From contig NC_042997.1 in the NCBI RefSeq assembly GCF_006345805.1, positions 163,556,001 through 163,620,000 of the forward strand: a DNA stretch of 64,000 nucleotides. The letters run 5' to 3'. This DNA comes from Octopus sinensis. Taxonomy: Eukaryota. This document shows positions 1,469-58,151 of the stretch, in pieces. Made by a program: the position numbers and the translations under genes. The notes beneath the pieces are model-generated. The model had not been told where the DNA came from, did not search any database, and worked only from the letters and a program-made list of their open reading frames with translations. The number at the start of each line of letters is the position of its first letter. Positions within the stretch are counted from its first letter, which is position 1.

Positions 1469-4400
1469 TGTTTATAATGTACTCACCTTACAGAATTTCT
1501 ACAAACTTTTTTATTGGAAGATTACAGTTATTTCCCTGATGATGAAAGTATTCTGACTTCCTTTGTTTTTGCTCAGTTTACTTTTAAGGACCTCCAATTT
1601 CATATTTTTATTTCTTAGTCTGGAACTTGTAAAATGATGATGATGATAAATATATTTATTATCGTGATGTTATAAACTCACATGAAATTAAATATATCTT
1701 CAAATTAGCTTAAAGATTTGAGCCCAAACACACATGCATGCTTTTTCTCTGTAATGATTCTTACCAGGAGCAGTTTCATTTTTGTTTCTTTGATGCTGTG
1801 TTTAATTCGTTTTGTAGTTCAACTTACGACACTTGAGATTAATAGCTTTGTGTATTAGTATTTACATTAAACTTTAAAGGCAACAGTTATTCCTGTTTAA
1901 CATCAAAATGGTAGCCACATGCAATAAGTTATTATCTTCCATTTTTGAAATTTTTTCAGTGTTTTATCTGGATTAAATATTTTAAAGATTAATTACAATA
2001 CTGCAAAGAAAAAATTTGGTTGAAAGTTAGATTTTGGAGTTAGGTTTAATGTTGGGTAAGAGTTTAGGCTTAGGTTTACACAGAGAGGGAAAATAATTAA
2101 AAAAGGTGATTGAACTTCTGAATTTTTTTTCCACACAATCATAATCTTCAGTATTTAAAGCAGAAGATTTAAAAAATATTTTCCTAAATAAATGCAAAAG
2201 GTACAAGGAAGGGAAATATTTATTACAATTCAAACATATATTTTATATCAATATACATTTCATATACCATTTAGTATATACAGTATCTAAATTCAAGCCA
2301 TTAATTTCATAGTGTGAAAATACAATAAACTGACAAGCTTATGAAGCATTTCCTAGCAATCTTTCAAACCTTGTATTCCCAAATTATCTTTCAGATTCAA
2401 ATATACAATATAGCTGGTCATTTTTGATAAAAATGAGAAAGGATGCTGTTCTTTGAAAAACACTCCTTTGCTTAATAGCTGGTGTTGAGGGATAAGTAGG
2501 GGAGAGTAGATGACAATGGTAGAAATTTAGGTAGGGTTGTGAAGGGTGGGAGAGTGTCCAATGATACATATGAATTGCTGAGAGGTGGGGGGGGTAGGGA
2601 ATGACTGGCAGTATACAAAAAGGAAGGGTGAAGAGCAGTAGAATAGCAATAATATTAGTATTATTGTTGAAGGGGATGAGAGAAAGAGCAGAAGATGATG
2701 TGTGGTTGTGAGTGATCAATGTAAAAAGTGAGTGGCGAGGACAGTATTTAAGAATGAAGGATGGATAACAAGTGACATGGTTCCAGTTAGTAAAAGCTGG
2801 GGAAGTATGTTGTTCAGCTCACATTTAATTACACTAACAGAACTGTAGTTAGTGAGAAGATGGGTGGTGAGAATGTCTTGAGGAGGAAACTGGATGGGCA
2901 GGGGTATTTTGGTATTGTGTTTGTGTATACACCCACATACATACACACTCACACAGTCAAATGATGCTTAGCAGGTTGAAACTTTGAAGTCACTATTAAT
3001 ATTTGTCTTGGTAAAGAACAGTGTATTCTACAAAAAGTATGGAGTAATCCTTCAAGTTAATATAAAACTGTTTTCTTTATAACAAGTGGCTGCGCGCGCA
3101 CACACAGACACACACACACACATTGTGCTTTCAAAAACTTAGTTTTGTCAAGATGGGTAGGTTGTCTTGAAAACTGCATACTGCTTGTCATCTTGGTCCT
3201 TTGTCATCACCTCCATGAGATTTAAGGCCCTGAGATTAACCTTCACCACTTCATCTCATGTCTTCCTGGGTCTCCATCTTTCACAAGTGACTGGCACTTC
3301 TTTATACAGCTGTTCTCATCCATATGCAGACTATTCAAGTGCAGTTTCCTTTCCTGCACACTGCATATAATTTCTGTTATGCCTAGATTTTCTCAATGTA
3401 TTTATCCTTTGTCATTAATATACACTTACACTGCATTTCCAACAGAACATGCCAGTTTCATTTCTTTTCAGTTTTCTTATTCTCTGCATTCATGGCCCAT
3501 ACCTCACAGCTTTGTAGCATCACAGTTCTGTCACAAATGTCATACAATCTGCCTCTACCAATGTTAGCATCCCCCTTGTGAAGAATATATTATAAAATGG
3601 TTATATTTTAACATAGATAATATATATTTTGTCATTTGAAAGTCTACACTTTGAAATAGCATATTTGACAAAGGTGTTTTTGCATTATTGAAAAAGAGTA
3701 CCTCCTATTCCTCTTGTTTGTTCTTTCTTGTATGTTAAACTTTGGAATGAGACTTTGAAAAATCGTGTTGCTTGGCTTTGATTGCATATCATTCCCATTA
3801 ACAAATTAGAGAATAATTGGCAGTAGTTCAGGGCTCTGACATTGGTTATTTGTTAGGGGAATGTTTTGTTTGCAATCTTTTCAGTTGGGAGCTAAGGCCT
3901 CTCAGTAAGAAGCAATAATTTAACCTATTCAAAATGAAGGATTTCCAGAAAGTCAACATTGCTGTTGGATCTCTCATAGTAAAAGTTCTTAGTGTTTTAT
4001 TTTGTTGGTTTTGGCAGGTTGTTGACAGTCTGTAAATATATTTTAAGATCCATGTGTAGATATATTAACACCAAAGTTGCACTTATGTTCAGAATTTTGA
4101 ATTGTTTCTTTGTTTGAAGTAAGGTAAAACATCTTGTTAGTGATTTTCTGCCCATCACAATGTCTCATGGTTTAAAGTTAAAAAAGAAATATGTACTTGG
4201 TTTTATTACTTCATGAAAAAACAGACAAATTTTTTTCAGATTAGAGATAAAAATGATTGTGCTAGATACAATCACAAACGATTTTCAGCTCTTCAAATTT
4301 TAGCAAAAATATCAAATGCAGCTGGAAATACTTCCTTTTTCAATGTCAATAAGTGTCACTGCGTTTACTCATGTCAAAAATGAAAAGAAAAAAAAAAAAA

Positions 4401-5011
4401 GGATAAAGAAAGAGAAGAAAAAAGAATTGCAAACAGAACAAGCATGAATAATATGGTTTATGAGTGAGTTGACTGATTGTCAAATATCAACATATTGTAG
4501 TCTTTCAGCCTGACCAGTTAGGTGTTTTGTTTGATAAGTACTTAAACAGCTGTGTCAGCGTCAACTGCAACAATTGGCATTTACAGACCATATAAATAGA
4601 AGAACGATTTCTTTTTAAACATAAAATATAAATTTAAGGCAAACTTTAAAAACTTTTATTGATTGTAGATCATACATAAAAAGATGTTTAAGAGTCCTTT
4701 TTGTTTAATCCTATAAAACAGCTCTTATCTAGTAGAGATGTAAAAATGACTTAATGGCAGGTGTTTCTGTACAACTTTGGCTATCATGTTTATTGGCAAA
4801 CATGGTAGAATTTTGTGTTTGTTCAATTCTGGTGATTTACTTTGTTGCTACTCATGATTTCTTATCTTTCAGTGACACCTTGAAGATCACAATATGTATT
4901 TAACACCTTTTATCTTGTCTGTCAAACAAAAGGTATGTGTGTCTGTACACACACACATGCATGCATATTCATATATATATATATAATTACAAATTGAGAT
5001 AGGGGTTGTGA

Positions 5012-5012
<1 letters not shown>

Positions 5013-5077
<65 letters not shown>
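5013..5077. repeat. Compound (TA)n(GA)n microsatellite
   Basis: Directly visible. Others at 12890, 13087, 18834-18886, 20745, 21808-21840, 22105-22131, 22699-22723 and 60053-60092. Confidence 0.95.
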
Positions 5078-5082
<5 letters not shown>

Positions 5083-7376
5083 GACATACAGACTGATAGA
5101 TAGACACATGTTGATTTTGTTATGTATTCACATTATTTGTAACAGAACTGCCATTGATATTGGTTTACTGGAAGGATTCTTGGAATGTAAAGTAAATCAT
5201 ACTTTGTCTAGGAAGTATATATTGAATTCTGTTGAGTGTTGTTTGGAGAGGGTATTGACCATGCTATTTGCAAGGAGCTGGTGAGGTAGAGCTGTCATTA
5301 TAAAAAAGTACAGCATCATAGAAAACAATTCTGTATTTTAAGTGGTAGGTATTGTTAGTTATTATTATAAGTAGGTATTATAAGTGGTTGGATATATTTC
5401 TGTGTTTATGTTTGTTTTAATGAGTTGTCTGATACTCATATCAATGAAAATAGCATTCAGCATTTAGTGAATTTTGTGGTAATATTTTTACTTATATTTC
5501 GAGGGGGCTCAGCTTAGCTTTCCAAAACATTCAGTCTCTCTACTCCAATATTATAAGTACAGTTTTTCTAGTTAATTTACCTCCTTTGACTTACTTCCTA
5601 TTTCTCACACGCATATACAATTGATACTAAGTTGTTAGTAATAGGGATCATGAGTGCTAAATTATTGTTTTATTGCAGCACAGTTGTGAGGTTCAGGTAC
5701 TGGATTTCTTACTTAGAAATTATGATTTCAAACCTTACCATAGCTGTATTATTTACTCTTTGTGAGAACTTGCATGGGATAATAAATGTATAGTACATGC
5801 ATGGATTAAGCTAGTTGAGTGCATATAGTTTTGGATGACTAGCTCATAAACCTTGAGTTTTACATATTTCAATTTATTTAAGTATAAATATTAGATTATC
5901 TGGGAATGTTTTCTGAGAAAGACTGATGTTTTGTCTCATACTCTCTTAATGTCAAAAAGTGCAGTGTAGTTGTGTGCTTGATATTCAGAACTACACATAA
6001 AGTTATGAGATTTAAAGAAAGAAATCAAGAATAAGTGGTGAGAAGAATGAAGCAAAGTGAAAGTTTGCAAGTTCAGAAGAACTATGAATTTGAGCAGCAG
6101 TTGAAGCTAAGGCACAGTTGAAGTTGCCTAAAGAATTGAACATTTCAATAAAAAAATGGTAAAGTTGGTTTCTGGGTAATATTCTATTATTGTTTAGTCT
6201 CAGGTCAATTATGATCAATAGCGTTCACCTGTGACCATTCCATCTTTTATTCAGATATAGTGTGTTGAAGACCACTGTATCTTTATTACCTGGGACCAAT
6301 GTATCCATATTTCTTTTGACATGGCCTGAAAATCTAGTTAGTATTTCTAGCCAGTTGTGTGATAATGGAAAGCTTCTTCATAGAATTCATCCAGGTGATG
6401 ATGTTAGGGGAGATAGAGAGTCCTGCATTTCTTGAGTTGCCTCTATGTTGGGAATTGTTCATAGGAAGTAGGTTTATGATGCTGTCTGTTCTCTTGAAAA
6501 AATGTTCTGTTATTAATATCTAGCTCTAAAAGCTTCATTGGACTATATGAAAGCTGGTATTGACAAAATGTGTAAATCTGGCGGAAACTACTTATTTCTG
6601 TAGAGTACAAGATGTCACACTTAACAGAGGCAAAGCAGTGAGAGTTGTGATCATCGCTAAATAATTAGTGGTTATTGACTCAAAGAAAATCAAGCACATG
6701 AAGGATATGAGAACTTATTAGTAAAAGAGTTTTAAGTTTAGATATTTTTTTTTCTTGTTGCATCAAAAAACTGGTTGTAAAAAGATTGTTAGAACCTTGA
6801 TGTTATGGTTCCTTCACATAGATGATTTCAAGAGAAAGGAGAAATAACCCCAGTACTTGATGAGTACTTTATTGGCCTTGAAAGGATAAAATGCAAAGTT
6901 GGCTTCAGGGGAATTTGAGCTCAAAATACAAAGATTTAGAATAAATACAAGGCATTCTTTTCTTGATTCTCTTAATGACTCTGCCAGTTGCTGCCTTTTA
7001 AATTTATTACTTTTTACTATAATAATTTATTGGAAGGATGTTTGATCAGCTAGTTTGCATGCTGCTAGTTGCTGATGGCTTTACTAATATATCATGAATG
7101 TGGGGCATTTTCAAATTTACTGACATGAATATAAAAACTAGGTTAAAAATATGGTAAAATGAGGTGCATCATTAGATAAGGTGTTTTGTTTATCTACTTC
7201 AGTGCCTGAGGAAATGTTTCAAAAGATTAACTAAACGAAAATATCTAAGATGTGTTCAACATCTAATATCCAATACACCGATACACAGTGTTGCTCAAAA
7301 GAAAATGCAAGAAACAGTTATTTTTAAATTGTATCATAGAATTTTATTAGTTGTTTGGAGCAATACAGCCAATTCT

Positions 7377-8070
7377 TATGTTCTGAGTTCAAATTCCAAC
7401 TTCGCCTTTCATCCTTTCAGGATCAATAAATCAAATACCAGTTGCATACTGTAGTCGATCTAATCGACTGGCCCCACTTTCCAAAAATTTCGGGCCTTGT
7501 GCCTAGAGTAGAAAAGAGTATCCTTTCATCCTTTCAGGATCGATAAATTAAGTACCAGTTGCGTACTAGGGATCGGTCTAATTGACTGGCCCCCTCCCCC
7601 CAAATTTCGGGCCTTATGCCTAGAGTAGTGAAGAATATTCGAAGGCGGCGAGCTGGCAGAAACGTTAGCACGCGGGGCGAAATGCTTAGCGGTATTTCGT
7701 CTGCCGCTACGTTCTGAGTTCAAATTCCGCCGAGGTTGACTTTGTCTTTCAGCCTTTTGGGGTCGATTAAATAAGTACCAGTTACGCACTGGGGTCGATA
7801 TAATAGACTTAATCCGTTTGTCTATCCTTGTTTGTCCCCTCTATGTGTAGCCCCTTGTGGGCAATAAAGTAATGAGAAACGTTAGCACGCCGGGCGAAAT
7901 GCGTAGCCGTATTTCGTCTGCAGTTACGTTCTGAGTTCAAATTCCGCCGAGGTTGACTTTGCCTTTCAGGATCGATAAATTAAGTACCAGTTGCGTACTG
8001 GAGTCGACCTAATCGACTGGCCCCCTTCCTCCAAAATTTCGGGCTTTGTGCCTAGAGTAGAAAAGAAAAG
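7377..8070 (+). mobile_element. Four head-to-tail units of tRNA-derived SINE family A
   Basis: Repeated gttctgagttcaaattcc...gcctttcatcctttc...gtcgat(a/t)aa...gtaccagtt core, which resembles the Nin/Deu SINE domain from memory. Units at about 7377-7519, 7520-7639, 7641-7875 and 7876-8070. Confidence 0.9.
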
Positions 8071-8379
8071 AATACAGCTAATTCTGAAATAGTTAAAAAT
8101 TTCTTTTCGAATTAAATCATAGGAGTAAATAAGAATGGGAAATGATTATATTTAAACTTTTCTTTTCATTGTATACTATTATTATTATGTAGGTAGAATA
8201 AAATAATAGTGGGACTATTATAATTGCAAAATCAAGTAACGATAAGTTTTTTATGAATGTAAAACAAATTTTAAAATGATTGTAAAATATCTCTGCATTG
8301 GCAAGTTTTATTTAATTTTACTTTACTCATCCTAACTTATAAATATTCTAGAAAGCAGGGAAGTTATGTAGCCAGAAAC

Positions 8380-9300
8380 ACGTCCCTTTGACTATGTAAC
8401 TATGTAAACTGTCAATATTGTCCCCTTTCCACATTGTTTTTTAAAGAAATGTCATCCACTTAAACCTCATCGTACTTCGTTAATAAACGATGCACGAAAA
8501 GAAAACCCGTTAAAAGATCACTCTATAAATTGTGTAGATATCTTCCCAGTTATTCGTGTTTTAATTTTAATTGTTTCGTTAATATTTATCAACATTATCA
8601 GTTCATTAGAAGTTATTTTTCCTCCCCCAGGTTTCGGTTTCGTAAATATTTACACTTTTTTTCTTGTTTATTCTGTATTTTCCATTACCCACTCGTAAAA
8701 CGTTCTCAGGTGTACATGATTAGATGTATGAAGTTTTATCAAGTTGTTCGCATTACCTTTTTTCGGTGCTTGTATAATTTGTATCTCAAGTGAGTAATTA
8801 ATTATATTTTTCGTAGTATTAATTAATATTGTTTTTTATCGAATTAGTCAATGTCTTATTTTTTCTTGCTATTTTGTAAATATTTCAAGCTAAATGTTGA
8901 GACCTTACTTGGGAAAGCAATTATTATTTCATGAACATGTTTTCTCTTAAGTTTTAAAATTCGGCTTGATTCGTTGCATGATTAAATATATCTACTTTGG
9001 ATAAGATAAGTGAAAATTCGTTCGATCGTAACTGTAAACTAGTATATTTAATCTATTCACCTCATTAAAATATCTATTTTGTTATTACTTAATTGCTCAT
9101 AAATATTTATTTTATAAGCCAAGCACACACACAAGGAATTCTCTCTATCTCCCCTCCTTTTTCTCAATTACGCGCGCGCACACTAACTCCTTTTTCCTGC
9201 TTGTCTGAACGTCTCATATAGTTGCTCCAGGCAAAACTAGATTTGACCCTGACTTATTTTTTATGTTAATTTTAATTCCCATACTAACACTCCGTGTTTT
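8380..9300 (+). promoter_or_regulatory. CpG-retaining putative promoter and first exon ending at 8789
   Basis: About 25-30 CpG by eye in 0.9 kb of AT-rich unique DNA, versus about 4 in 14041-16000. TATAAA at 8524, Inr-like TCAGTT near 8598, donor AA|gtgagt at 8790. Confidence 0.55.
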
Positions 9301-12300
9301 TTGTGTGTGCTTTAAATTTCAGCAATATACTATTTCTTTCCTTTTCTCTGTCCTGAGATCAGAGGTATTCCAGCTGTGACTATCCTGCCTTTTTAGAGAG
9401 ATATAGGATTACATTATCTACATAATGTCTTTTTTTTGTTGTTTAAAAGAGAAGGATGTGATTTAAGGGAAATTTGGCTGTTATTTGTAGTTTGGTGAAC
9501 GACCATGTAGAGCTTCCCTAGTTGGTTCGTTAGCCTTTTTTTTTTAATTTACAAAAGGGTGCAAGCGGCTGATGGTTGAATCAACAGGTCGGACTTCCAG
9601 CGGTAGCAGGGGTGATGATTCTATCTCGTTACCAGTACTAAACTCTTACCGTGGAAAAAGCGCAGCCCACCTTGTTAGATGTAGACACAGATCCACGATG
9701 TATGCAGTGTAATTTTCAACAGAAGAACTGAAATCTATGAATTTTATTTCAAAATATTCTGAGACTAGCAAAATTACCAAAATTCAATATTATATTAACC
9801 GTCAATAATTATATTATATATTTTTTGTGTCGGTCATTAGACTGCGACCATGCTGGGGTACCGCCTTGGAGAATTTTTTAATCGAATGAATTGACCCCAT
9901 CACTTATTATTTTAAGCCCCGTACTTATTCTATCGATCTGTTTTGCCGAACTGTTAAATTACAGGTACGGAAACACATCAGCACCGGTTGTCAAGCGGTG
10001 GAAGGGGGAAACACTGACACAAAGACACGCACGCACACACAACGGGGTTCTTTCAGTTTCTGTCTACAAAATCTACTCACGAAGCTCTAGTCAGCCCGAG
10101 GCAATAGTAGACGACAATTGCCCAAGATATCACGCCTGTATTATTTAAAAATAATTTGCAGGAAGCTGCTTAAATTCCATCAAAGCCTTCAATCTAACAC
10201 ACCAACTAGGGAACCTCAACATGGTCATTCACCAAACTACAAATAACAGCCAAATTTCCCTCAAATTACATTCTTCTCTTTTAAACAAAGAAAGACTTTA
10301 TGTAGATAATGTAATCCTTGAGTAACAGTCAACTGGAATCAATTTAACTGACTATATTTTCCCTCTAAATTGTAAAGCATTATGCCAGTGTTAGAAATTA
10401 AATATTTATTATACTAGAAATATATCTAAGTTATTTAAAATTTTGTTTTAGAGTTAAAATTTTGCATTGATTTTGTATATAATTCTATATACTAGAAATG
10501 GGTAGATGATTGAAGGATTAGTTAAAAAAAATAATGGAAGAAAAAATCCACCCAAATCTGTGAGAGGCTGTACTCAGAGTCTATATAGCATAGATAAAAT
10601 GCCTTTCCATGGTTGCATGACCTGCTAAATTTTCTCAAATGACACTATCCAGAAATAAAAGTCGGGGCAGGATACCTTGGATAGTGTAGCACTAGATATA
10701 TAAAAGATGGGATGTTCATGGCTGAATAGCCTTTGATGATACATTTTCTTGTCAGGATGACATGGGCACCAAACAACGCTAATTGTAAAACAATGTCCAA
10801 TGATGACAGTGTCACTGAATAGGAAGAAACTTGTCTTTGAAACCTCACATATTTAGCAACAGGAACTTTCTCACCTATAATTGATTATTTGTGCAGGATT
10901 GGATTCAAATTGGTTATGTTTGTATTATTTTCACAGACATGTGAAATAACAATGTGTCTATTGCAGAGAAGTTGGAAAACTGTATTCAATACAATGTAAC
11001 AATAATGTTAAAAAAAAACTGTATTCAATACAATGTAAACAAATGTGGTAACATAAAAACAAAATCTATGTAACATGTGGAAGTCATTGCACATTCTTAG
11101 AATTTAATAGAATTTGGGAATGGACTATTGCTAAAAATGAATGAAATAAGATAAACTTTTGGAAGATGCATCTAAAAAAAAATTGTCAAGATAAGTATTG
11201 CTAATCTGTTTTCTTAGTAGAGCTGGTTTCTTCAGTATGAGAAAAAAAATTTGTTAAAAATAGAGAAAGCAACCAACAATACCAATGGTTAAACTGTCTC
11301 AGTAACCATTCTCTGGTGGCAAGCAGCAGCTTATTTCTGTTGGCTGGATTTCTTCACAGCAAATTGTACTTGCTTATGGATGAGTGCACTGTTGTTATTG
11401 TAAGAGATGTCAACAGGAATACTGGATGGTGTGAAATCAAAGGACAAAGACAGCTAGAAGCAGATGTCTCTGATATGCTAGTAGAAAAGAGACAGGATGT
11501 GACTCTTATTTATTTTATATTGTAATTAATGAACAATAATAGTTTTGCTTATGTATATTGAATGGGGCAATTACTAGTTCACTGCATTTCAGATGGTGAG
11601 AACAACAAAACAGTATCTTAAACTTGGTGCAAAACAAATATTGCAAAGGGCTTGGTTCATTTTGTTGTAGATGTTTACATCCTTCTCCAATAATTGTTTC
11701 AAACTTTGACACAAAGTCAGCAATTTTAAAGGGAGAAGCCAAGTTAATTACATTGACCCCAGCATTTGACTGGTACTTTATTTTATTGACCCTAAAAAGA
11801 TGAAAAAGGAAAGTCAACCTTGGTGAGATTCAAATTCAGAATGTAAAGAGTCAGAAGAAATGCCACTAAGCAATATGTCTGACATGCTAACGTTTCTGCC
11901 AGCTTGCTACCTTAATCCTTCTTCATAATAATCTGTGAATCTACAAGGCACTGGTCAATCTGAAGTATGTTAGAAGACATTTGCCTAAGCAATCAATGCT
12001 GTGTGTTGGTTAATGTAGTATTTCTCTTCATATCTCTTACAATTAAAAACATCTAGTATTTTTTTCTAATGAAATAATATACTATTTAAGAGGGATGATG
12101 AAACGACAAGCATGCTTTGTCTGTTTTAATAATTGCGGCTGAAATCTGTATTTGTTAGAGACGGCCTTGAGACTAGGTGGAGAATTTCTCTTAATGCTCA
12201 TACATAGTTTGTGAAAGGAAGAGTATCCAGTTATAAAAACCAAGCTGCAATCATATGAAGTGAAAGAGAACAAACATTACATTGGAAACGTTCCATTCTT

Positions 12301-20774: not shown

Positions 20775-21141
20775 AATGTGAATGAATATTGACATTAAAT
20801 AGCTTCACTTGTTACCACTTGAAATGGTGCTGTGATGTTTATATTCCTTGATAACATTATGACCAGTCAGTGTGTGCTTTTGAAGACCTGTGGAATAAAA
20901 ATATCCCATACTTAAAAAGCAGCTAAGAGTTGGCAACCAGGAATAGTATCTGGCTGTAAAATCCTGCTTCTATTAACTTTACTTCAACCCCATGGTTGAA
21001 CAAAAGTTAATATGAAAAACATGGATGTTAAATGCATGAACATGTATATATATACAAAAACAATTGCAGTGTGGGAGGTGTTTATAAACCATTTACAAAA
21101 CACACAAAAACTGTTAGATTCACTTCAACATTTAAATTTAA

Positions 21142-21192
21142 TTTGTCAAAATATTTTCGTCATTTTGAAACCACGACCTGTTCACTGACAAA
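21142..21192 (-). ncRNA. Minimal hammerhead motif with swapped G3-C8 core
   Basis: Minus strand tttgtca-GTGAACA-g-gtcgt-ggtttcaaa-atgac-GAAA-ATAT-TT-tgacaaa: 7-bp helix I, 5-bp helix II, palindromic 4-mer helix III. A more decayed mirror copy lies at 21212-21262 (+). Confidence 0.65.
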
Positions 21193-21277
21193 ATTCCATG
21201 CAGCATGGAATTTTGCCAGTGAACTGGTTACTGTTTCAAAACAATGAAAATATTTTAACAAATTAAATTTAAATGTT

Positions 21278-21682
21278 AGGAGTGGCTGTGTGATAAGTAG
21301 CTTGCTAACCAACCACATGGTTCCGGCTTCAGTCCCACTACGTGGCATCTTGGGCAAGTGTCTTCTGCTATAGCCCCGGGCCGACCAATGCCTTGTGAGT
21401 GGATTTGGTAGACGGAAACTGAAAGAAGCCTGTCGTATATATGTATATATATATGTATGTGTGTGTGTGTGTTTGTGTGTCTGTGTTTGTCCCCCTAGCA
21501 TTGCTTGACGACCGATGCTGGTGTGTTTACGTCCCCGTCACTTAGCGGTTCGGCAAAAGAGACCGATAGAATAAGTACTGGGCTTACAAAGAATAAGTCC
21601 CGGGGTTGATTTGCTCAACTAAAGGCGGTGCTCCAGCATGACCGCAGTCAAATGGCTGAAACAAGTAAAAGAGAAAGAGAGA
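21278..21682 (+). mobile_element. tRNA-derived SINE family B (CORE-like, internal TA/TG microsatellite)
   Basis: ggagtggctgtgtg...ggttccggcttcagtccc (A/B-box-like), cttgggcaagtgtcttc core, gaaacaagtaaaaga tail. Relatives at about 9830-10135(-), 12935-13230, 18680-19045, 42972-43250, 46400-46530, 53548-53900, 58155-58405(-) and 62480-62720. Confidence 0.9.
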
Positions 21683-21805
21683 AAGTGAATCTAATGGTTT
21701 TTGTGTGTGTTTTAAAATGGCTTATAAACACCTCCCATGCTGCAATTGTTTTTGTTTCAGCACACAATCTCAGATCAAGTCACTTGCTATGCAAGTACAT
21801 CTCTG

Positions 21806-21872: not shown

Positions 21873-22098
21873 ATATATAAAAGAAAGGAAATGAAGAAAA
21901 TGCTGACAAAATAATTTAAGTAAGGGAGAGTGTATTTAATTAGGTGAAAGTTCTTTTTACCGGTTGCGCATTTGTTATGCTTAAAAAAATATCTTTTGAT
22001 AAGCATAACAAATGCGCAACCGGTAAAAAGAACTTTCACCTAATTAAATACACTCTCCCTTACTTAAATTATTTTGTCAGCATTTTCTTCATTTCCTT

Positions 22099-22110
<12 letters not shown>
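21873..22110. repeat. Perfect 111-bp inverted repeat with 16-nt spacer (probably Penelope-like)
   Basis: 21873-21983 is the exact reverse complement of 22000-22110. This explains the twin ORFs 21842-22039(-) and 21944-22132(+). It lies between (TA)n runs. Confidence 0.95.
21992..22031 (+). ncRNA. Hammerhead-like motif with U3-A8 core and GCAA in place of GAAA
   Basis: tctt-TTGATAA-gcat-aacaa-atgc-GCAA-CCGG-TA-aaaaga: helix II and palindromic helix III fit, helix I is weak, A13 is substituted. Confidence 0.45.
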
Positions 22111-32881: not shown

Positions 32882-33158
32882 TTTTGTATAATTACATCTC
32901 CTAGAGTTGTATGAGTAAATTCTGATAGCTTGCATAATGTGCTTTGCAGAGTTTGACAAAAATAATTTTCATGGTCAAAAAATATATTTTTAATTTTATA
33001 TAACTTTTACTTATAATCTTGTTAACACTTTGATCATTTTATGTTGTTTAATTTTCAAAATGTAATAATTAATGATTTGCTTGCTCTTTTTTGTTAGGTC
33101 TTTCAAGAACTAATAGTCACCCCATTAACAATTTTGCAATTATTTGAATACACTAAAT

Positions 33159-33316
33159 ATGTCCCACTACAGCTCTAAAAGAGAAGATGGTACTAAATTC
33201 CTTGAGTCCAACAGAAAAAAAATATCTCTAGGAAGCAGTGATAAGTTAACAGCAGAGTTTACTAATCAAGAAATTCCATCCCAAGAGCAGGTTTCATCTG
33301 TCTCTAGAGCTTCAAG
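33159..33316 (+). CDS. SVIL: First coding exon of supervillin-like gene (exon 33098-33316 including 5' UTR)
   Basis: Acceptor ctttttttgttag ends at 33097. An in-frame TAA at 33126-33128 precedes ATG 33159. Open frame MSHYSSKREDGTKFLESNRKKISLGSSDKLTAEFTNQEIPSQEQVSSVSRAS runs to donor AG|gtaaaa after 33316. Phase 2 matches the acceptor of the large exon. Too short for the ORF track. Confidence 0.75.
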
Positions 33317-37340: not shown

Positions 37341-38233
37341 TTAGCTATATATATATATGTGTATGTGTGTGTGTTTGTGAACACATGCACACACAAGCTC
37401 ATACATACACACACACACATATTGTAAATTATATTGAGTAATATCCTAAAAGGATTTAAGGTACAGTTCTATTTGTGTTTTGAAAGTTGGCATCCATATA
37501 ACTATGTTTAATTTTGTAACAGGTAATTATTAAACTGATGTGTCCTTCCTGGTGTCATGTGCTTTAACAATCACCTGTTAGATTAAGGAAAGACAAATAG
37601 GTGTCTTGACAACACTGACTTACATCCATAGTGTCCATTGCCGTAGCAACAACAGCATCATGTTGTTAAGTCTCATCATCATTATTATCATCAGTAACAG
37701 CAGTGTCAGTAGTGGCAGTGCAGCATCACTGTTGACTTTATTAAAAAGATCTACTAACCCACATATGCAATGATTGGATTTATCTGCTTGTATCTGTTGA
37801 TGAAATGTTTTATAACTATAAACTTTTTCTAACAATTTACAACAGCGAATAGGTGAATAATTACTTTCTCTCTTAGCAAATATATTAAAGTTTCACTTCC
37901 AGGGATACACTGTAATACATCCAAAGAGTTTTATTACTGCTAAATAAACTTTGTGTTCATCACTTTCACCATTGATCCATATCTGAATATATTTTTTCAC
38001 ATCAATCACATAATCATTTAAATTTGTTTCAGTACATAACTGTTGATTATTGCTTTGTATACAGGTTGTTAGTGAAGCTTATTTTTCTGCATGGTTTCTT
38101 GTGGTACTTTTTTTTTTTTTTTTAGAAAATCTCAAAAAATTCACATTTTAATCTCAATATTTTTTTGTTATTGTAAAAGAATACATCACATAAATTTTGT
38201 TTTCAGAATTATCATTTTGTTTTTCTTTTCTAG

Positions 38234-40663
38234 TTTCAGTGCTGGAAGATGGTTGTCCAGTAGGAAAAATGAGACCACAGAGACAGAAGCTGAATCCCTC
38301 TTGAAATCTCCTAAACCAAGCTGTATTCCTTCAAGTGGTAGGGAAGTAAATCACAGTAGCTTCGGCTGGCCACCATCTCATAGTTTTACTACTTCAGATA
38401 AGACTTCACTAGACAAAACAGCTTTGGGTGAAAATTACCATCAAAGAAGCTCATACCTAACACATGGTAAAATGTCAAATGTGCCTTCATTTAAGCATAA
38501 AGGTATGACAGAAAGCTGTACTAAAGAAGATAATATTCGAGATTTAAGAACTGACAGATGTTCTGATAAACTACACAAGTCCATTCAACAGGCTGATGCT
38601 AGTTCCTCCCGTAATATTCCTTTGAGAGCATCTGTTCGTAAAAGTCATGATTCTGAAAGGAATAGTGATTATGGAATAAGCAAATCTTCATTACACAGTA
38701 ATATGCCTCATAAAAGAAGTCCCACAAAGTCTTCTGAATCTAGTAACACTAATCAAAAAACACCCAGAATTGTTGCAAAAGAAAGATTATCTGGAGATCA
38801 TGACTTGCAAATGGCCAATATTGAAAGTTCTGTTTCTCCAGCAGGATTAAATGTAAATAAAAATAACAACGATCTCAAGTCACTAAGAAAACCTGTTACT
38901 TCTGGTAGAGTAGCTGAAGGTTTTGCAGATCAGTCATTTGACCGTTCAGATGTAAAATATAATTCATGCAGATCCCGTATACCAACTCCTAATTCTCCTT
39001 CAAGTTCACATAAAGCTGAATCACATAAACTTTCATCACAGAGCTTTACTTTTTCTAGAGGTTCGGATACAAACAAAGCTAACATGGAACAGAGTGGTAA
39101 GGAAACAAATGAAAGTAGAGCTGAACGTATTGCTCGTTATAAACAAATCAGACGAAATGAACTGGCTTCAATAATTAAGGCCAGACTAGATGCTAACGGT
39201 GGTGACAAAAAGGAAGAAGATGAAGATAAAAAGTTGAATTTGAAACAGAATCTTTATCCAGAAATAGCAAAAGAAAGTGAAACACAGTTTCCAATCTCAT
39301 CTCTTACTGAAAAAGGCAACTTGAATTTAAGAACAGAAGGCATTGAGCCTGAGAGTTCAGATTTAAAGCTGAATAGATTGCAACAAAAATCCAGAAATGT
39401 GTCTGAACGGTCCAAAAAACGGCAAGAAAGAATGCTACGAAATAGTCAACATTTATCTGCTGATCTTATTGGTCAAACTACAAAAGGTAGAATTCTTAGT
39501 AATAAATTGGATACATCCACAAGTATAGACTCTAGGAATATTCCTCCTTCTATTGCTGATGATACTCAACCATCTTTAGAAGCTGAGAGAGCAGTGAGTC
39601 TGTCATATGATGACAGAAGTCAGCTAGCTCAGTTAAGAAGCAATGAAGTAGGAACAGACTTTGCTTCAAATGTTACTAATATCTCTTCTGAAATCCCCTG
39701 TAACAAAAATCTTTCCAACCAGCCATCAGAATCCATTGGTGCTAAAACTGGGATAGAAAATGAGAAAAGTTCTTTATCATTATCAAATGACAGGTTCATA
39801 GATAAAGGTTATAATAAAGATTTATATACTCCTTTAAGAAAACAAAATGTACAGGAAAAGCCAAATATCATTGGTAGACAACAAGAAAAGTGTAGGTTTC
39901 AAAGTAAAAGTGATGGATATTTAACATCAGGTTCTGAGGCTGGATTTTCTGATAATATTTTTGACTACTCCATATCTGAATCAGATAATTTTAGGAATTA
40001 TAACATCGACAGTGAAACAGACATACAATTATACTCTCAGATGACAGCTGACTTAAATGAGAACCCTAGATCCTCAACATCTTTCGTAAAATCAAAACAA
40101 CTACCTGAAAGTGCTGTTTCATATAGAAAACAATTGTTGCAGGATCTGAATGAAAAAAGTGAGAATAAAAAAATTGAGAATGAATATAAGAAAGATATCG
40201 ACTGGTTAGAGCGTAGAAAGTTTGAATACATGATTAAAAAAGCTGAGAAGGAAAAGAAATTTTCAGTCTTAGACAAGATTAAAGCTGCTGAAATAAAAGC
40301 TCATGCAATTAGACAGAAAAGAGAAGAAAATAAGGCACAGAAGCCTCTTGAAAGAACAAAGAGTGAAAGTCAAGTTAAGATGCCTTTAGAGGTTTGTCAA
40401 GAAACTAATCGAAAAAATACTAACTTGGAACGGGCTCAATCTTTTGGATCTGCCCCTGTGAAGAAAATTGAGGAACTTCTTTTCTCTCCTAAGTATGAAA
40501 GTAACTTGGATGAGCTTCTTTTAAAGAATGCTGCTTATTTAGCAGATGAAGAAACAGATTTGCCATCGCAGTCTGTAAGGAATTTACATCCTAAAGAAAA
40601 TTTAAAGCTCAGGAAGTCTGTACGGAAGAAAAAATTAACCAAGCTTGCCAGTGTGTCAGAAAG
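38234..40663 (+). CDS. SVIL: Giant coding exon (2430 nt) of supervillin-like protein; Ser/Lys/Glu-rich, probably disordered N-terminal region
   Basis: Core of the 858-aa ORF. Pyrimidine tract plus tag at 38231-38233 (alternative cag at 38237-38239). Strong donor AG|gtaagt after 40663. ESRAERIARYKQIRRNELA (39111-39167) matches the human supervillin N-terminal ESKAERIARYKAERRRQLA as I recall it (14/19). The exon is near certain. The gene name rests on this one motif, and no gelsolin/villin domains are visible in the window. Confidence 0.8.
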
Positions 40664-40847
40664 GTAAGTTTGATATTATTATATATTTGCTTGTAAGATG
40701 CAATTTAAAGTAAAAATAAAAAAAGTGATACAAATATTTTTATGTAAGCTAATAAAGTGAAAAGAAAATTATTTCCATACAAACAATTAATTAGTTACAT
40801 CTCTTGGAAAAAGTCAAGATCTTGTATAAAGCTTGAATATAATATTG

Positions 40848-41069: not shown

Positions 41070-41142
41070 TTCCCATGCCAGGAATCAAACCAGGGCTGCT
41101 TTGGTGAGAGCCAGGAATCCTAACCACTAGATCACATAGGGA
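41070..41142 (-). pseudogene. tRNA-Glu(CTC) pseudogene
   Basis: Minus strand TCCCTATGTGATCTAGTGGTTAGGATTCCTGGCTCTCACCAAAGCAGCCCTGGTTTGATTCCTGGCATGGGAA aligns with eukaryotic tRNA-Glu. The anticodon stem is broken (CCTGG/CAAAG), the B box is CpG-decayed (GGTTTGA), there is no CCA, and TTTTCTTTTT follows. Confidence 0.85.
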
Positions 41143-56938: not shown

Positions 56939-58151
56939 TTGGGTCATCTCATAAATAATGCAATTCAAAATTAAGATAAAGTTCATTTTTAATCTGCAAT
57001 ATACTCTCTTTCATTTTCTACAATGTTCTTCCATCTATCTGGTAGATTTACAAAATCCCTCTTCCAAAATTCACTTGTCCGTAAAGAAAAATACTCCTCC
57101 AGTGCTGTTCTCACCTCATCTACAGAATTCATATTTTTTCCATCCAAATGATTTTGAAGACTGCAGAATAAATGATAATCAGATGGGGCAATGTCCAGCC
57201 AATATGGTGGGTTGAGCATTGTTTCCCATTCAAACTGCTCCAGCCTTTGGAATATCATCCTCACTGTATGTGGCTGAGCATTATCTTGATGGAAGAACAC
57301 CTTTCATCTTGAAACCAAAGATGGTCATTTTTCTTCTAATGCTGACTTATGTCACTCAAGCTGCTTGCAGTAGATCTCTTTTGTTATTGTGTGGTTTGGG
57401 TTTAAAAGTTTAAAGTGGACTAAACCTTTCATATCCCACCAAACAGATAACATCTTAAATGGGTGAAGACCTTTTTTAGCCTGAGGTGCTGGTGTTTCTC
57501 CTTTCCCTGTCCACTGACATAGAGAATCCATTTCTTGTCACCAGTCGCTATTTGGTCCAAAAAATGTTCATTTGTGAGACATGGCAATAAAGAAGAGCAC
57601 ATATTCACTCTCTGCACATGGTTAGACTTGGAAAGTTTGTGAGGGACCCATTGAGCCAATTTGCTGAATTTACTGATGGCATGCAGGTGTCAATGACTGA
57701 TTGAATAATCTCAGCTTGTTCCTCAGCAGTTACAATAGAATTTTGTTCCACCAGGGTTTCCAGGATGTCCTTGTTGAGCTCTACAGATCTTCCAGGATGA
57801 GGCTTGTCTTCTAGGCTGTAGTTTCTAGCTTGGAATTTCTTGTACCACCATTGACACTGGCTTACGCTTATTGTCCAATCTCCATATACTGCATTAATAT
57901 TCCTCGCACATTCCATTATGTTATTGAACTCATAAAATATGCCAAATATGCTCCCTTGCCATTTCCATCGTAGCTTTGAAAAAATAACTGTTGAAATCGA
58001 ACTGCACTCTTCAAAACTTGCACTAAGAATAAGTACAAGGTAAAATGACTACCTGCTTTTATAACAAGTTGATGCAGGTAGTTAATCCCATCCCCCTCCA
58101 ACTTTTAGTTCATGCAATTGAAAAAACTGCACTATTTATGAGATGACCCAA
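56939..58151 (-). mobile_element. Full-length defective mariner (D,D34D) transposon, 1213 bp
   Basis: TIRs begin TTGGGTCATCTCATAAATA at both ends, with TA at 56937-56938 and 58152-58153. Frameshifted transposase with WVPHKL, TGDKKW, HQDNAQPH and DIAPSDYHLF (ORFs 57605-57916, 57429-57659, 56989-57300). Confidence 0.95.

What the first reader, a model, noticed from the sequence alone, without database searches (positions are those of the whole stretch)
21142..21262. G3-C8 swapped hammerhead with predicted UUU cleavage site, present in both palindrome arms
Seen: the minus-strand copy has intact helix I (tttgtca/tgacaaa), helix II (gtcgt/atgac) and GAAA-ATAT-TT. The plus-strand mirror keeps GTGAAC and GAAAATATTTT but has lost A9 and helix II. 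The swap therefore predates the inversion. Inference: it is a family trait rather than decay. The copy on the host pre-mRNA strand is the disabled one, which could reflect selection or chance.
Basis: partly seen in the sequence, partly recalled or inferred. Interest (0 to 1): 0.7.

Follow-up and report, generated by a model that had tools for sequence, protein, structure and literature searches.

The report
Octopus Penelope hammerhead with swapped core
An abundant octopus jumping-gene family carries a hammerhead-shaped RNA motif with two paired core letters swapped as its majority form, so it is likely a natural ribozyme variant that standard searches miss, though self-cutting is untested and this particular copy is predicted to be dead.

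Summary
The motif is real, and the G3-C8 swap is a family trait. Contigs from four DNA runs (four organism labels; 2,232-10,297 contigs laid per run) show no other letter at 5% or more anywhere in the core, and majority letters repair helix II.

The palindrome is a head-to-head stub of an Octopus Penelope-like element (PLE). Its outer ends encode the first 13 and 29 codons of a protein whose longer relatives carry RT and C-terminal GIY-YIG motifs. Extra nucleotide, palindromic helix III and U17 are normal for PLE minimal hammerheads; UUU occurs in an oyster PLE.

This locus is predicted dead on both strands. The 'intact' arm misfolds (helix II probability 0.04 versus 0.99 with majority letters) and the arms pair with each other. 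The strand-selection idea is unsupported: 8 versus 2 private changes (p=0.11), mostly CpG, and intronic status is not shown.

I found no natural G3-C8 hammerhead in the papers I could search, but a key survey (Lunse 2017) was unavailable. This scan noted G3-C8 before in phages and protist PLEs. Cleavage is untested. Verdict: new variant of a known kind.

The parts
21054..21206 (-). Left arm: one pseudo-LTR (pLTR) copy of a Penelope-like element, read from the centre outwards, ending after codon 13 of the element ORF, next to a (TA)n stretch
21142..21192 (-). Minimal type I hammerhead motif with G3-C8 core, extra G, 5-bp helix II, palindromic 6-nt helix III and 7-bp helix I; helix II partly decayed in this copy
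21179..21185 (-). Core G3 (21185) to A9 (21179), with C8 at 21180; family majority in 4 of 4 runs
   Evidence: tables 2 and 3
21148..21149 (-). Predicted cleavage site after U17 (21149), 57 nt ahead of the ORF start codon; not shown to cut
   Evidence: hammerhead numbering
21054..21092 (-). First 13 codons of the PLE ORF in the left arm
21198..21206 (.). 9-nt self-complementary centre where the two arms overlap; many family copies end near 21206
   Evidence: tables 2, 5, 7
21198..21277 (+). Right arm, first part
21212..21262 (+). Decayed mirror hammerhead motif: G3 and C8 kept, A9 to U, helices I and II broken
21278..21682 (+). SINE-like repeat inserted later into the right arm (boundaries approximate; 7 related matches elsewhere in the window)
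21683..21755 (+). Right arm, second part
21717..21803 (+). First 29 codons of the PLE ORF; 25 of 29 residues identical to the N-terminus of Octopus protein P0033
21756..21805 (+). One-sided 50-nt extension ('tail'), followed by (TA)n; also seen as loose ends in 23-41 contigs per run
   Evidence: (table 7)

Best explanation
This palindrome is a head-to-head stub of two pseudo-LTRs of an abundant Octopus Penelope-like retroelement whose majority hammerhead motif carries G3-C8 in place of C3-G8, and that motif likely still self-cleaves slowly in the source element, while this genomic copy is predicted to be dead. Shown: motif letters, majority state in four runs, head-to-head layout, one-sided tail, (TA)n flanks, and overlap with the start of an ORF linked by homology to RT plus GIY-YIG proteins. 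Inferred: in the source RNA two motif copies would pair through the palindromic helix III. G3-C8 would form the tertiary pair that places the 2'-OH of residue 8 as general acid, with G12 as base, and the cut would fall after U17, 57 nt before the start codon, probably with help from the element's protein. The stub would arise in one insertion at a (TA)n site, with reverse transcription starting at two nearby sites (after codons 13 and 29, giving the tail) and turning back at the short palindrome at the pLTR 5' end. A SINE inserted later, and CpG decay hit both arms.
For: Family majority: one search shows no other letter at >=5% across 21176-21193 in X1, X2, X8 and X10. Of the four majority differences inside the motif, three are in helix II and raise its probability from 0.04 to 0.99; the fourth is in loop II. 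The one common helix I variant (21146, 18-40%) gives a U.G wobble. PLE link: window 21687-21803 hits P0032 residues 1-25 (E 5e-4); 21717-21803 is 25 of 29 identical to the P0033 N-terminus. P0034 overlaps these (E 2e-30). Of its 29 longer homologues, 29 have two RT motif patterns, 25 a CX2-5CxxC linker and 24 a GIY-YIG pattern; P0033 against P0035 gives E 8e-26. Layout matches Arkhipova 2013 (PMC3846280 passages: pLTR includes the first 12 codons, 22 with the tail; arms overlap; head-to-head) and Craig 2021. 12 of 15 listed joints change strand, 10 of them at 21192-21212 with variable partners. Engineered C3G/G8C partly rescues a PLE hammerhead, which needs protein (PMC11167929). A related PLE (L122) has a motif of the same layout 227 nt after its stop codon.
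Against: No cleavage data. Rfam gave no hammerhead hit at gathering or at E<=10. The extra nucleotide is G, against a published consensus of H (G in 1 of 56 rows). Double-mutant rescue is only partial, and cleavage was not needed for insertion in vitro. The L122 motif has A at position 5 and U15.1-A16.1, which suggests relaxed catalysis in this lineage (one copy only). No covariation at 3-8 was seen inside the family. Depth-weighted contig counts favour high-copy subfamilies, and only contigs >=80% alike were laid. No full-length Octopus element with the motif and a whole ORF was seen; the link is a chain of partial proteins, and Pfam RVT_1 and GIY-YIG each matched only 5 of 29 homologues, all below cut-off.
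Confidence: 0.62

Rival explanations
1. Same origin (PLE pLTR motif, family-fixed G3-C8), but it no longer cuts at a useful rate. The fold is kept as a dimerisation or protein-binding signal, or the swap was simply carried by a successful master copy.
For: Hammerhead cleavage was dispensable for Poseidon insertion in vitro, and Naiads thrive without canonical hammerheads. The related L122 motif has A5 and a flipped 15.1-16.1 pair; that G5A usually inactivates is recalled, not from a call. PLE minimal hammerheads cut poorly in vitro. Thousands of copies from few masters give little independent evidence of selection.
Against: The 3-8 pair is reported in the active, tertiary-stabilised fold and not in ground-state structures (PMC3884650 passage), so a double change that keeps it is easier to explain by selection on the active fold. 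All other core positions are canonical. The core stays unchanged while X1/X2-specific alleles arose at 21116, 21117, 21136 and 21194.
Confidence: 0.29
2. One reading: the copy on the host pre-mRNA strand was disabled by selection against cutting the host transcript.
For: The plus-strand copy has 8 private changes versus 2. The nearest mapped gene is on the plus strand, and its first coding exon begins with a splice acceptor, so an upstream exon probably exists. Retrozymes are depleted from Xenopus introns (10.64898/2026.07.22.740005 passages).
Against: p=0.11, and most changes are at CpG sites. The minus-strand copy is also predicted to misfold. Either transcript buries the core in the long hairpin, and each strand has only one sense copy, so no partner in cis. 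Intronic status is not shown.
Confidence: 0.05
3. A chance hammerhead look-alike inside a short DNA-transposon-like repeat (MITE).
For: Many copies end near 21206 with mixed flanks. A possible 7-8 nt match between the two ends was seen by eye in low-agreement loose ends. No Rfam hammerhead hit.
Against: The element's end encodes the N-terminus of a PLE-type ORF. Variable head-to-head joints, the one-sided tail and (TA)n flanks are PLE traits. The chance rate is about 1 per 100 Mb, and the majority letters improve the hammerhead fold.
Confidence: 0.04

Closest known systems
Minimal type I hammerheads of metazoan Penelope-like elements (Cervera and de la Pena 2014, PMC4209133; main text parts 1-2 of 4 and supplement file 2 parts 1-2 of 3 read)
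   Same: Extra nucleotide between 9 and 10.1, G10.1-C11.1, palindromic helix III, U-rich 5' and AU-rich 3' flanks, frequent U17, location in a pLTR, many solo copies, pairs on opposite strands; a U3-A8 core variant is already known.
   Different: G3-C8 is in none of the 56 aligned rows, though their descriptors favoured C3 or U3. The extra nucleotide is G (1 of 56 rows). Helix I is 7 bp, longer than the 4-5 bp of the Schistosoma families.
Insertion unit of endonuclease-bearing PLEs (Arkhipova 2013, PMC3846280, passages; Craig 2021, PMC8557442, passages and supplement searches)
   Same: Head-to-head inverted pLTRs overlapping at a short palindrome, optional tail at one end, pLTR includes the first codons of the ORF, (TA)n target.
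   Different: No ORF body between the pLTRs here; the tail is 50 nt, not 30-40; no clear target-site duplication.
Poseidon element PAc of Anolis and its engineered C3G/G8C hammerhead (Frangieh 2024, PMC11167929; parts 1-2 of 4 read)
   Same: Same G3-C8 pair in a PLE hammerhead, with partial rescue; insertion ends about 85-95 nt after the cut site; tail explained by two RT start sites.
   Different: There the swap is a laboratory mutant. The PAc ORF starts inside helix II, whereas here it starts 57 nt after the cut site. The endonuclease region of the relatives here looks Nematis-like by eye.
Natural hammerhead core variants (Perreault 2011, PMC3088659; section 8 and passages read)
   Same: Covariation of the 3-8 pair in nature (U3-A8); U15.1-A16.1 variant active at low rate.
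   Different: G3-C8 is not named in the section I read; figures were not visible.

Membership tests
PLE minimal type I hammerhead | Core C3 U4 G5 A6 N7 G8 A9 (or U3-A8) | tested here: not met
   G3 and C8 in the window and in the family majority
PLE minimal type I hammerhead | Watson-Crick pair possible between 3 and 8; U4, G5, A6, A9 kept | tested here: met
PLE minimal type I hammerhead | G12 A13 A14 A15.1 and U16.1 H17 | tested here: met
   21158-21155, 21150, 21149; only a 4-6% CpG-type minor allele at G12
PLE minimal type I hammerhead | One unpaired nucleotide between 9 and 10.1 (consensus H) | tested here: inconclusive
   Present but G; G in 1 of 56 published rows
PLE minimal type I hammerhead | G10.1-C11.1 and a stable helix II | tested here: met
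   Majority letters give 5 Watson-Crick pairs, probability 0.99; this copy 0.04
PLE minimal type I hammerhead | Palindromic 15.2-16.2 and loop 3 allowing a dimer | tested here: met
   6-nt palindrome; predicted duplex energy only -0.2 kcal/mol on its own
PLE minimal type I hammerhead | Lies in a PLE pLTR | tested here: met
PLE minimal type I hammerhead | Site-specific self-cleavage (as dimer or protein-assisted) | not testable with these tools
   No assay; no raw RNA reads laid
Rfam hammerhead families | Match to a covariance model | tested here: not met
EN+ Penelope-like element | Head-to-head inverted pLTRs with a one-sided tail | tested here: met
EN+ Penelope-like element | pLTR plus tail contain the first codons of the ORF | tested here: met
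   13 and 29 codons; 25 of 29 identical to P0033
EN+ Penelope-like element | Single ORF with RT and C-terminal GIY-YIG | tested here: met
   In homologues only, not at this locus: RT patterns 29 of 29, GIY-YIG pattern 24 of 29; Pfam hits below cut-off; best PDB profile hit is an RT
EN+ Penelope-like element | Target-site duplication or microsatellite target | tested here: inconclusive
   (TA)n on both sides; no discrete duplication readable
Nematis or Neptune clade | CX2-5CxxC linker before the endonuclease | tested here: met
   25 of 29 homologues; resembles Nematis rows by eye
Nematis or Neptune clade | Placement in an RT phylogeny | not tested
   No reference clade sequences were held as files
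Non-LTR retrozyme | Head-to-tail tandem units each with a hammerhead | tested here: not met
   Head-to-head here; none of the 15 listed joints (of 37) goes back on the same strand
MITE (DNA transposon) | Terminal inverted repeats with a target-site duplication and no retroelement ORF | tested here: not met
   The end encodes a PLE-type ORF start; terminal match seen only by eye

The most novel reading that the evidence does not exclude
A Nematis-like PLE lineage carries its own rewired hammerhead subclass: extra G, 5-bp helix II, 6-nt palindromic helix III, and pair-preserving core flips (G3-C8 fixed across Octopus; A5 with U15.1-A16.1 in L122). It is active as a dimer or with the element's protein and invisible to CUGANGA descriptors. 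The G3-C8 state was reached through an inactive single-mutant step and then kept, which would be natural evidence that PLEs are selected for the catalytic fold, and some PLEs called ribozyme-less may simply carry such variants.
Probability: 0.3. Interest if true: 0.72.

Novelty: new variant of a known kind. Interest (0 to 1): 0.52.

Why it matters
What PLE hammerheads do is open: they cut poorly in vitro, and cutting was dispensable for insertion in one assay. The 3-8 pair belongs to the active fold and each single change is inactive. A high-copy animal family with the double change as its majority form is therefore a natural test of whether the catalytic fold is under selection, and a four-construct assay settles it. 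It would also show that searches anchored on CUGANGA, as used for Naiad and Chlamys, miss whole families. The palindrome, the UUU site and the arm asymmetry are ordinary.

Tried and rejected
No whole genome was held, so no copy-by-copy alignment, covariation test or intron strand test was possible.

Metagenome scans: the full pattern gave 0 hits. One viral hit is a bare pattern match with no wider similarity to the element. Related-locus scans found none in viral contigs and one in genome contigs.

Rfam hits at E<=10 were generic hairpins. Short motifs of this family were absent from the Craig 2021 supplement; line breaks could hide matches. The Atlas search of P0032 gave only 0.75. P0030 and P0031 are repetitive proteins and were dropped.

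Rejected ideas: (1) U17 as a special adaptation to avoid a G3-C17 trap. It is compatible, but U17 is common anyway (24 of 56). (2) A short intron after the motif, seen by eye; the protein frame reads through the candidate acceptor. (3) A non-autonomous MITE.

A loose-end consensus hinting at A3-U8 (X1, 30 contigs, agreement 0.53) is too weak to use. Summed contig depth is not used as a copy number.

Not readable: Lunse et al. (about PLE hammerhead variants) and Przybilski and Hammann 2007; only their titles were seen in reference lists. 'Not in print' rests on searches of open-licence papers. Figures, file 1 of the Cervera supplement, bioRxiv supplements and the O. vulgaris repeat supplement were not seen and may bear on it.

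Full report
Setting. The window is octopus DNA. Two exons (33159-33314 and 38229-40664, plus strand) are 100% identical to O. sinensis supervillin-like LOC115211517. None of the 29 protein records mapped has a matching exon upstream of 33159. The start-codon exon begins with a splice acceptor, so an untranslated upstream exon is likely, but its place is unknown. That the finding lies in the host pre-mRNA is therefore not shown.

Observation. The minus strand at 21192-21142 has the layout of a minimal type I hammerhead: 7-bp helix I, G3 U4 G5 A6 A7 C8 A9, an extra G, 5-bp helix II starting G10.1-C11.1, GAAA, a 6-nt palindromic helix III and U17. A descriptor allowing any Watson-Crick 3-8 pair found only this site in the window and none at helix II >=5 and helix I >=5 in 150 shuffles. 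At >=5 and >=7 it found 2 in 205.8 Mb of simulated sequence. The descriptor is post hoc, and a scan of many windows would meet such motifs by chance, so the family test below carries the weight. Rfam gave no hammerhead match.

Anatomy. The palindrome is centred on 21202. The left arm runs to 21054. The right arm is split by a SINE-like insert (about 21278-21682), resumes to 21755 and carries 50 further bases to 21805. Both outer ends abut (TA)n. Both arms read in hammerhead sense away from the centre and overlap in a 9-nt self-complementary stretch.

Family test. Contigs of four DNA runs with four organism labels were laid on 21000-21230 at 80% likeness: 10,297, 7,097, 2,232 and 4,611 contigs (4 of 24 listed runs). 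Depth over the core is high in all four. No other letter reaches 5% at 21176-21193, so G3, C8, A9 and the extra G are the majority, and a C3-G8 form is below 5% of depth. Inside the motif the majority differs from this copy at four places. Three lie in helix II and make it five Watson-Crick pairs; one is in loop II. With these letters the hammerhead register has probability 0.99 and G12 is free. The window's own copy has 0.04 and slips into a register that pairs G12. This is a test the motif was not fitted to. The one common helix I variant (18-40%) makes a wobble pair. Alleles at 21116, 21117, 21136 and 21194 are common in X1 and X2 and near absent in X8 and X10, which suggests amplification went on after these lineages split, with the core unchanged. 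Caveats: depth favours high-copy subfamilies, is not a copy number, and gives no covariation.

What the repeat is. Depth falls about 17-fold after 21207, where loose ends are mixed and AT-rich. Part of the fall reflects the reference turning into the mirror arm. Twelve of 15 listed joints (22 more not shown) change strand, 10 of them at 21192-21212 with partners from 21128 to 21162. Earlier scan notes on PLE stubs led me to Arkhipova 2013, where pLTRs include the first 12 codons of the ORF, 22 with the tail. The right arm has an ATG at 21717 open for 29 codons. A search with 21687-21803 hit O. bimaculoides P0032 from its first residue (E 5e-4); two repetitive proteins were dropped. P0032 led to O. 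sinensis P0033 (25 of 29 identical to the window's frame) and O. vulgaris P0034. All 29 longer homologues of P0034 have two RT motif patterns, 25 have a CX2-5CxxC linker and 24 a GIY-YIG pattern. P0033 aligns to the N-terminus of P0035 at E 8e-26. Pfam support is weak: RVT_1 and GIY-YIG each 5 of 29, below cut-off. The endonuclease region looks Nematis-like by eye; no tree was made. The left arm holds the same start at 21092, 57 nt after the predicted cut, and ends after 13 codons. The palindrome is thus a PLE pLTR stub. A full-length Octopus copy was not seen.

A relative. The one related locus retrieved, L122 (34% identical over 719 residues; filed in a bacterial genome bin, probably stray eukaryotic DNA), has a motif 227 nt after its stop codon. 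It shares the extra G, 5-bp helix II and 6-nt palindromic helix III, with a 6-bp helix I, but has C3-G8, A at position 5 and U15.1-A16.1. A relaxed, post hoc descriptor hit 7 of 20,000 shuffles of that region. Its predicted minimum-energy fold keeps helix II but not helix I. This supports a hammerhead-shaped motif at this place in the lineage. It also warns that the core may be relaxed. It is one copy.

This locus. In 21127-21201 the arms share three departures from the majority, consistent with one template. The right arm has 8 private changes (5 at CpG) and the left 2 (both CpG); p=0.11. The right copy has also lost helix I. A transcript of either strand pairs the core with the mirror arm at probability near 1, and each strand has one sense copy only. 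Both copies are predicted inactive, so selection on the host strand is not needed to explain the asymmetry.

Mechanism. Shown: sequence, majority state, layout, ORF overlap. From the literature: G12 as base and the 2'-OH of residue 8 as acid (PMC6155905 passage); the 3-8 pair forms in the active fold (PMC3884650 passages); C3G and G8C each abolish, and the double change partly restores, cleavage of a Poseidon hammerhead that needs protein, and cleavage was not needed for insertion (PMC11167929). Inferred: the source RNA dimerises through helix III and cuts slowly after U17; the stub came from one insertion with two RT start sites and a turn-back at the pLTR 5' end. I put PLE origin with family-fixed G3-C8 at about 0.9, and useful cleavage given that at about two in three.

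Comparison and novelty. The extra nucleotide, G10.1-C11.1, the palindrome, solo copies and opposite-strand pairs are published PLE traits. In the 56 published rows, by my count, U17 occurs 24 times, UUU once (Crassostrea), an extra G once and G3-C8 never; their descriptors favoured C3 or U3. Natural U3-A8 is known. In ten searches of open-licence papers I met G3-C8 only as a laboratory variant (among them). Lunse et al., the largest survey of PLE variants, was not held, so prior description cannot be excluded. Unchecked notes of this scan report G3-C8 in phages and protist PLEs. The motif works like a PLE minimal hammerhead but fails the C3-G8 or U3-A8 core test, so I file it as a new variant. 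What is added here is majority status in a high-copy animal family across four organism labels, tied to a PLE ORF.

Noticed in passing
L122:2535-2577: Hammerhead-shaped motif behind the ORF of a related PLE, with extra G, 6-nt palindromic helix III, A at position 5 and U15.1-A16.1. The contig sits in a bacterial genome bin and looks like stray eukaryotic DNA.
   Followed up: partly
window 21873-22110: Second palindrome, 117-nt arms 98% complementary, 70 nt from the first, with (TA)n nearby and a short one-sided extension. No hammerhead descriptor hit and no other copy in the window; possibly another retroelement stub.
   Followed up: partly
P0033 (O. sinensis LOC115227545): The gene model joins about 224 residues of the PLE ORF N-terminus to a methyltransferase fragment; either a mis-annotation or exonisation.
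   Followed up: no
window 21161-21190 (run X1 loose end): Low-agreement consensus (30 contigs, 0.53) reads like an A3-U8 core; too weak to use but worth checking in assemblies.
   Followed up: no
window 21116, 21117, 21136, 21194: Alleles common in runs X1 and X2 but near absent in X8 and X10, suggesting lineage-specific subfamilies.
   Followed up: no
window 21100-21160: Contig depth peaks here at about four times that over the core; unexplained (related subfamilies or alignment bias).
   Followed up: no
window 9434-9533 and 10194-10293: 100-nt inverted repeats 90% complementary, enclosing 660 nt that include a reversed SINE copy.
   Followed up: no
window 33098-33316 and 38229-40664: First two coding exons of a supervillin-like gene with a very long N-terminal exon; splice acceptor before the start-codon exon.
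   Followed up: partly
window 57608-58048: Mariner-type transposase remnant (Pfam HTH_48, E 4e-9).
   Followed up: no
window 41070-41141: tRNA-like sequence just above the Rfam threshold (32.5 bits), possibly a SINE head.
   Followed up: no
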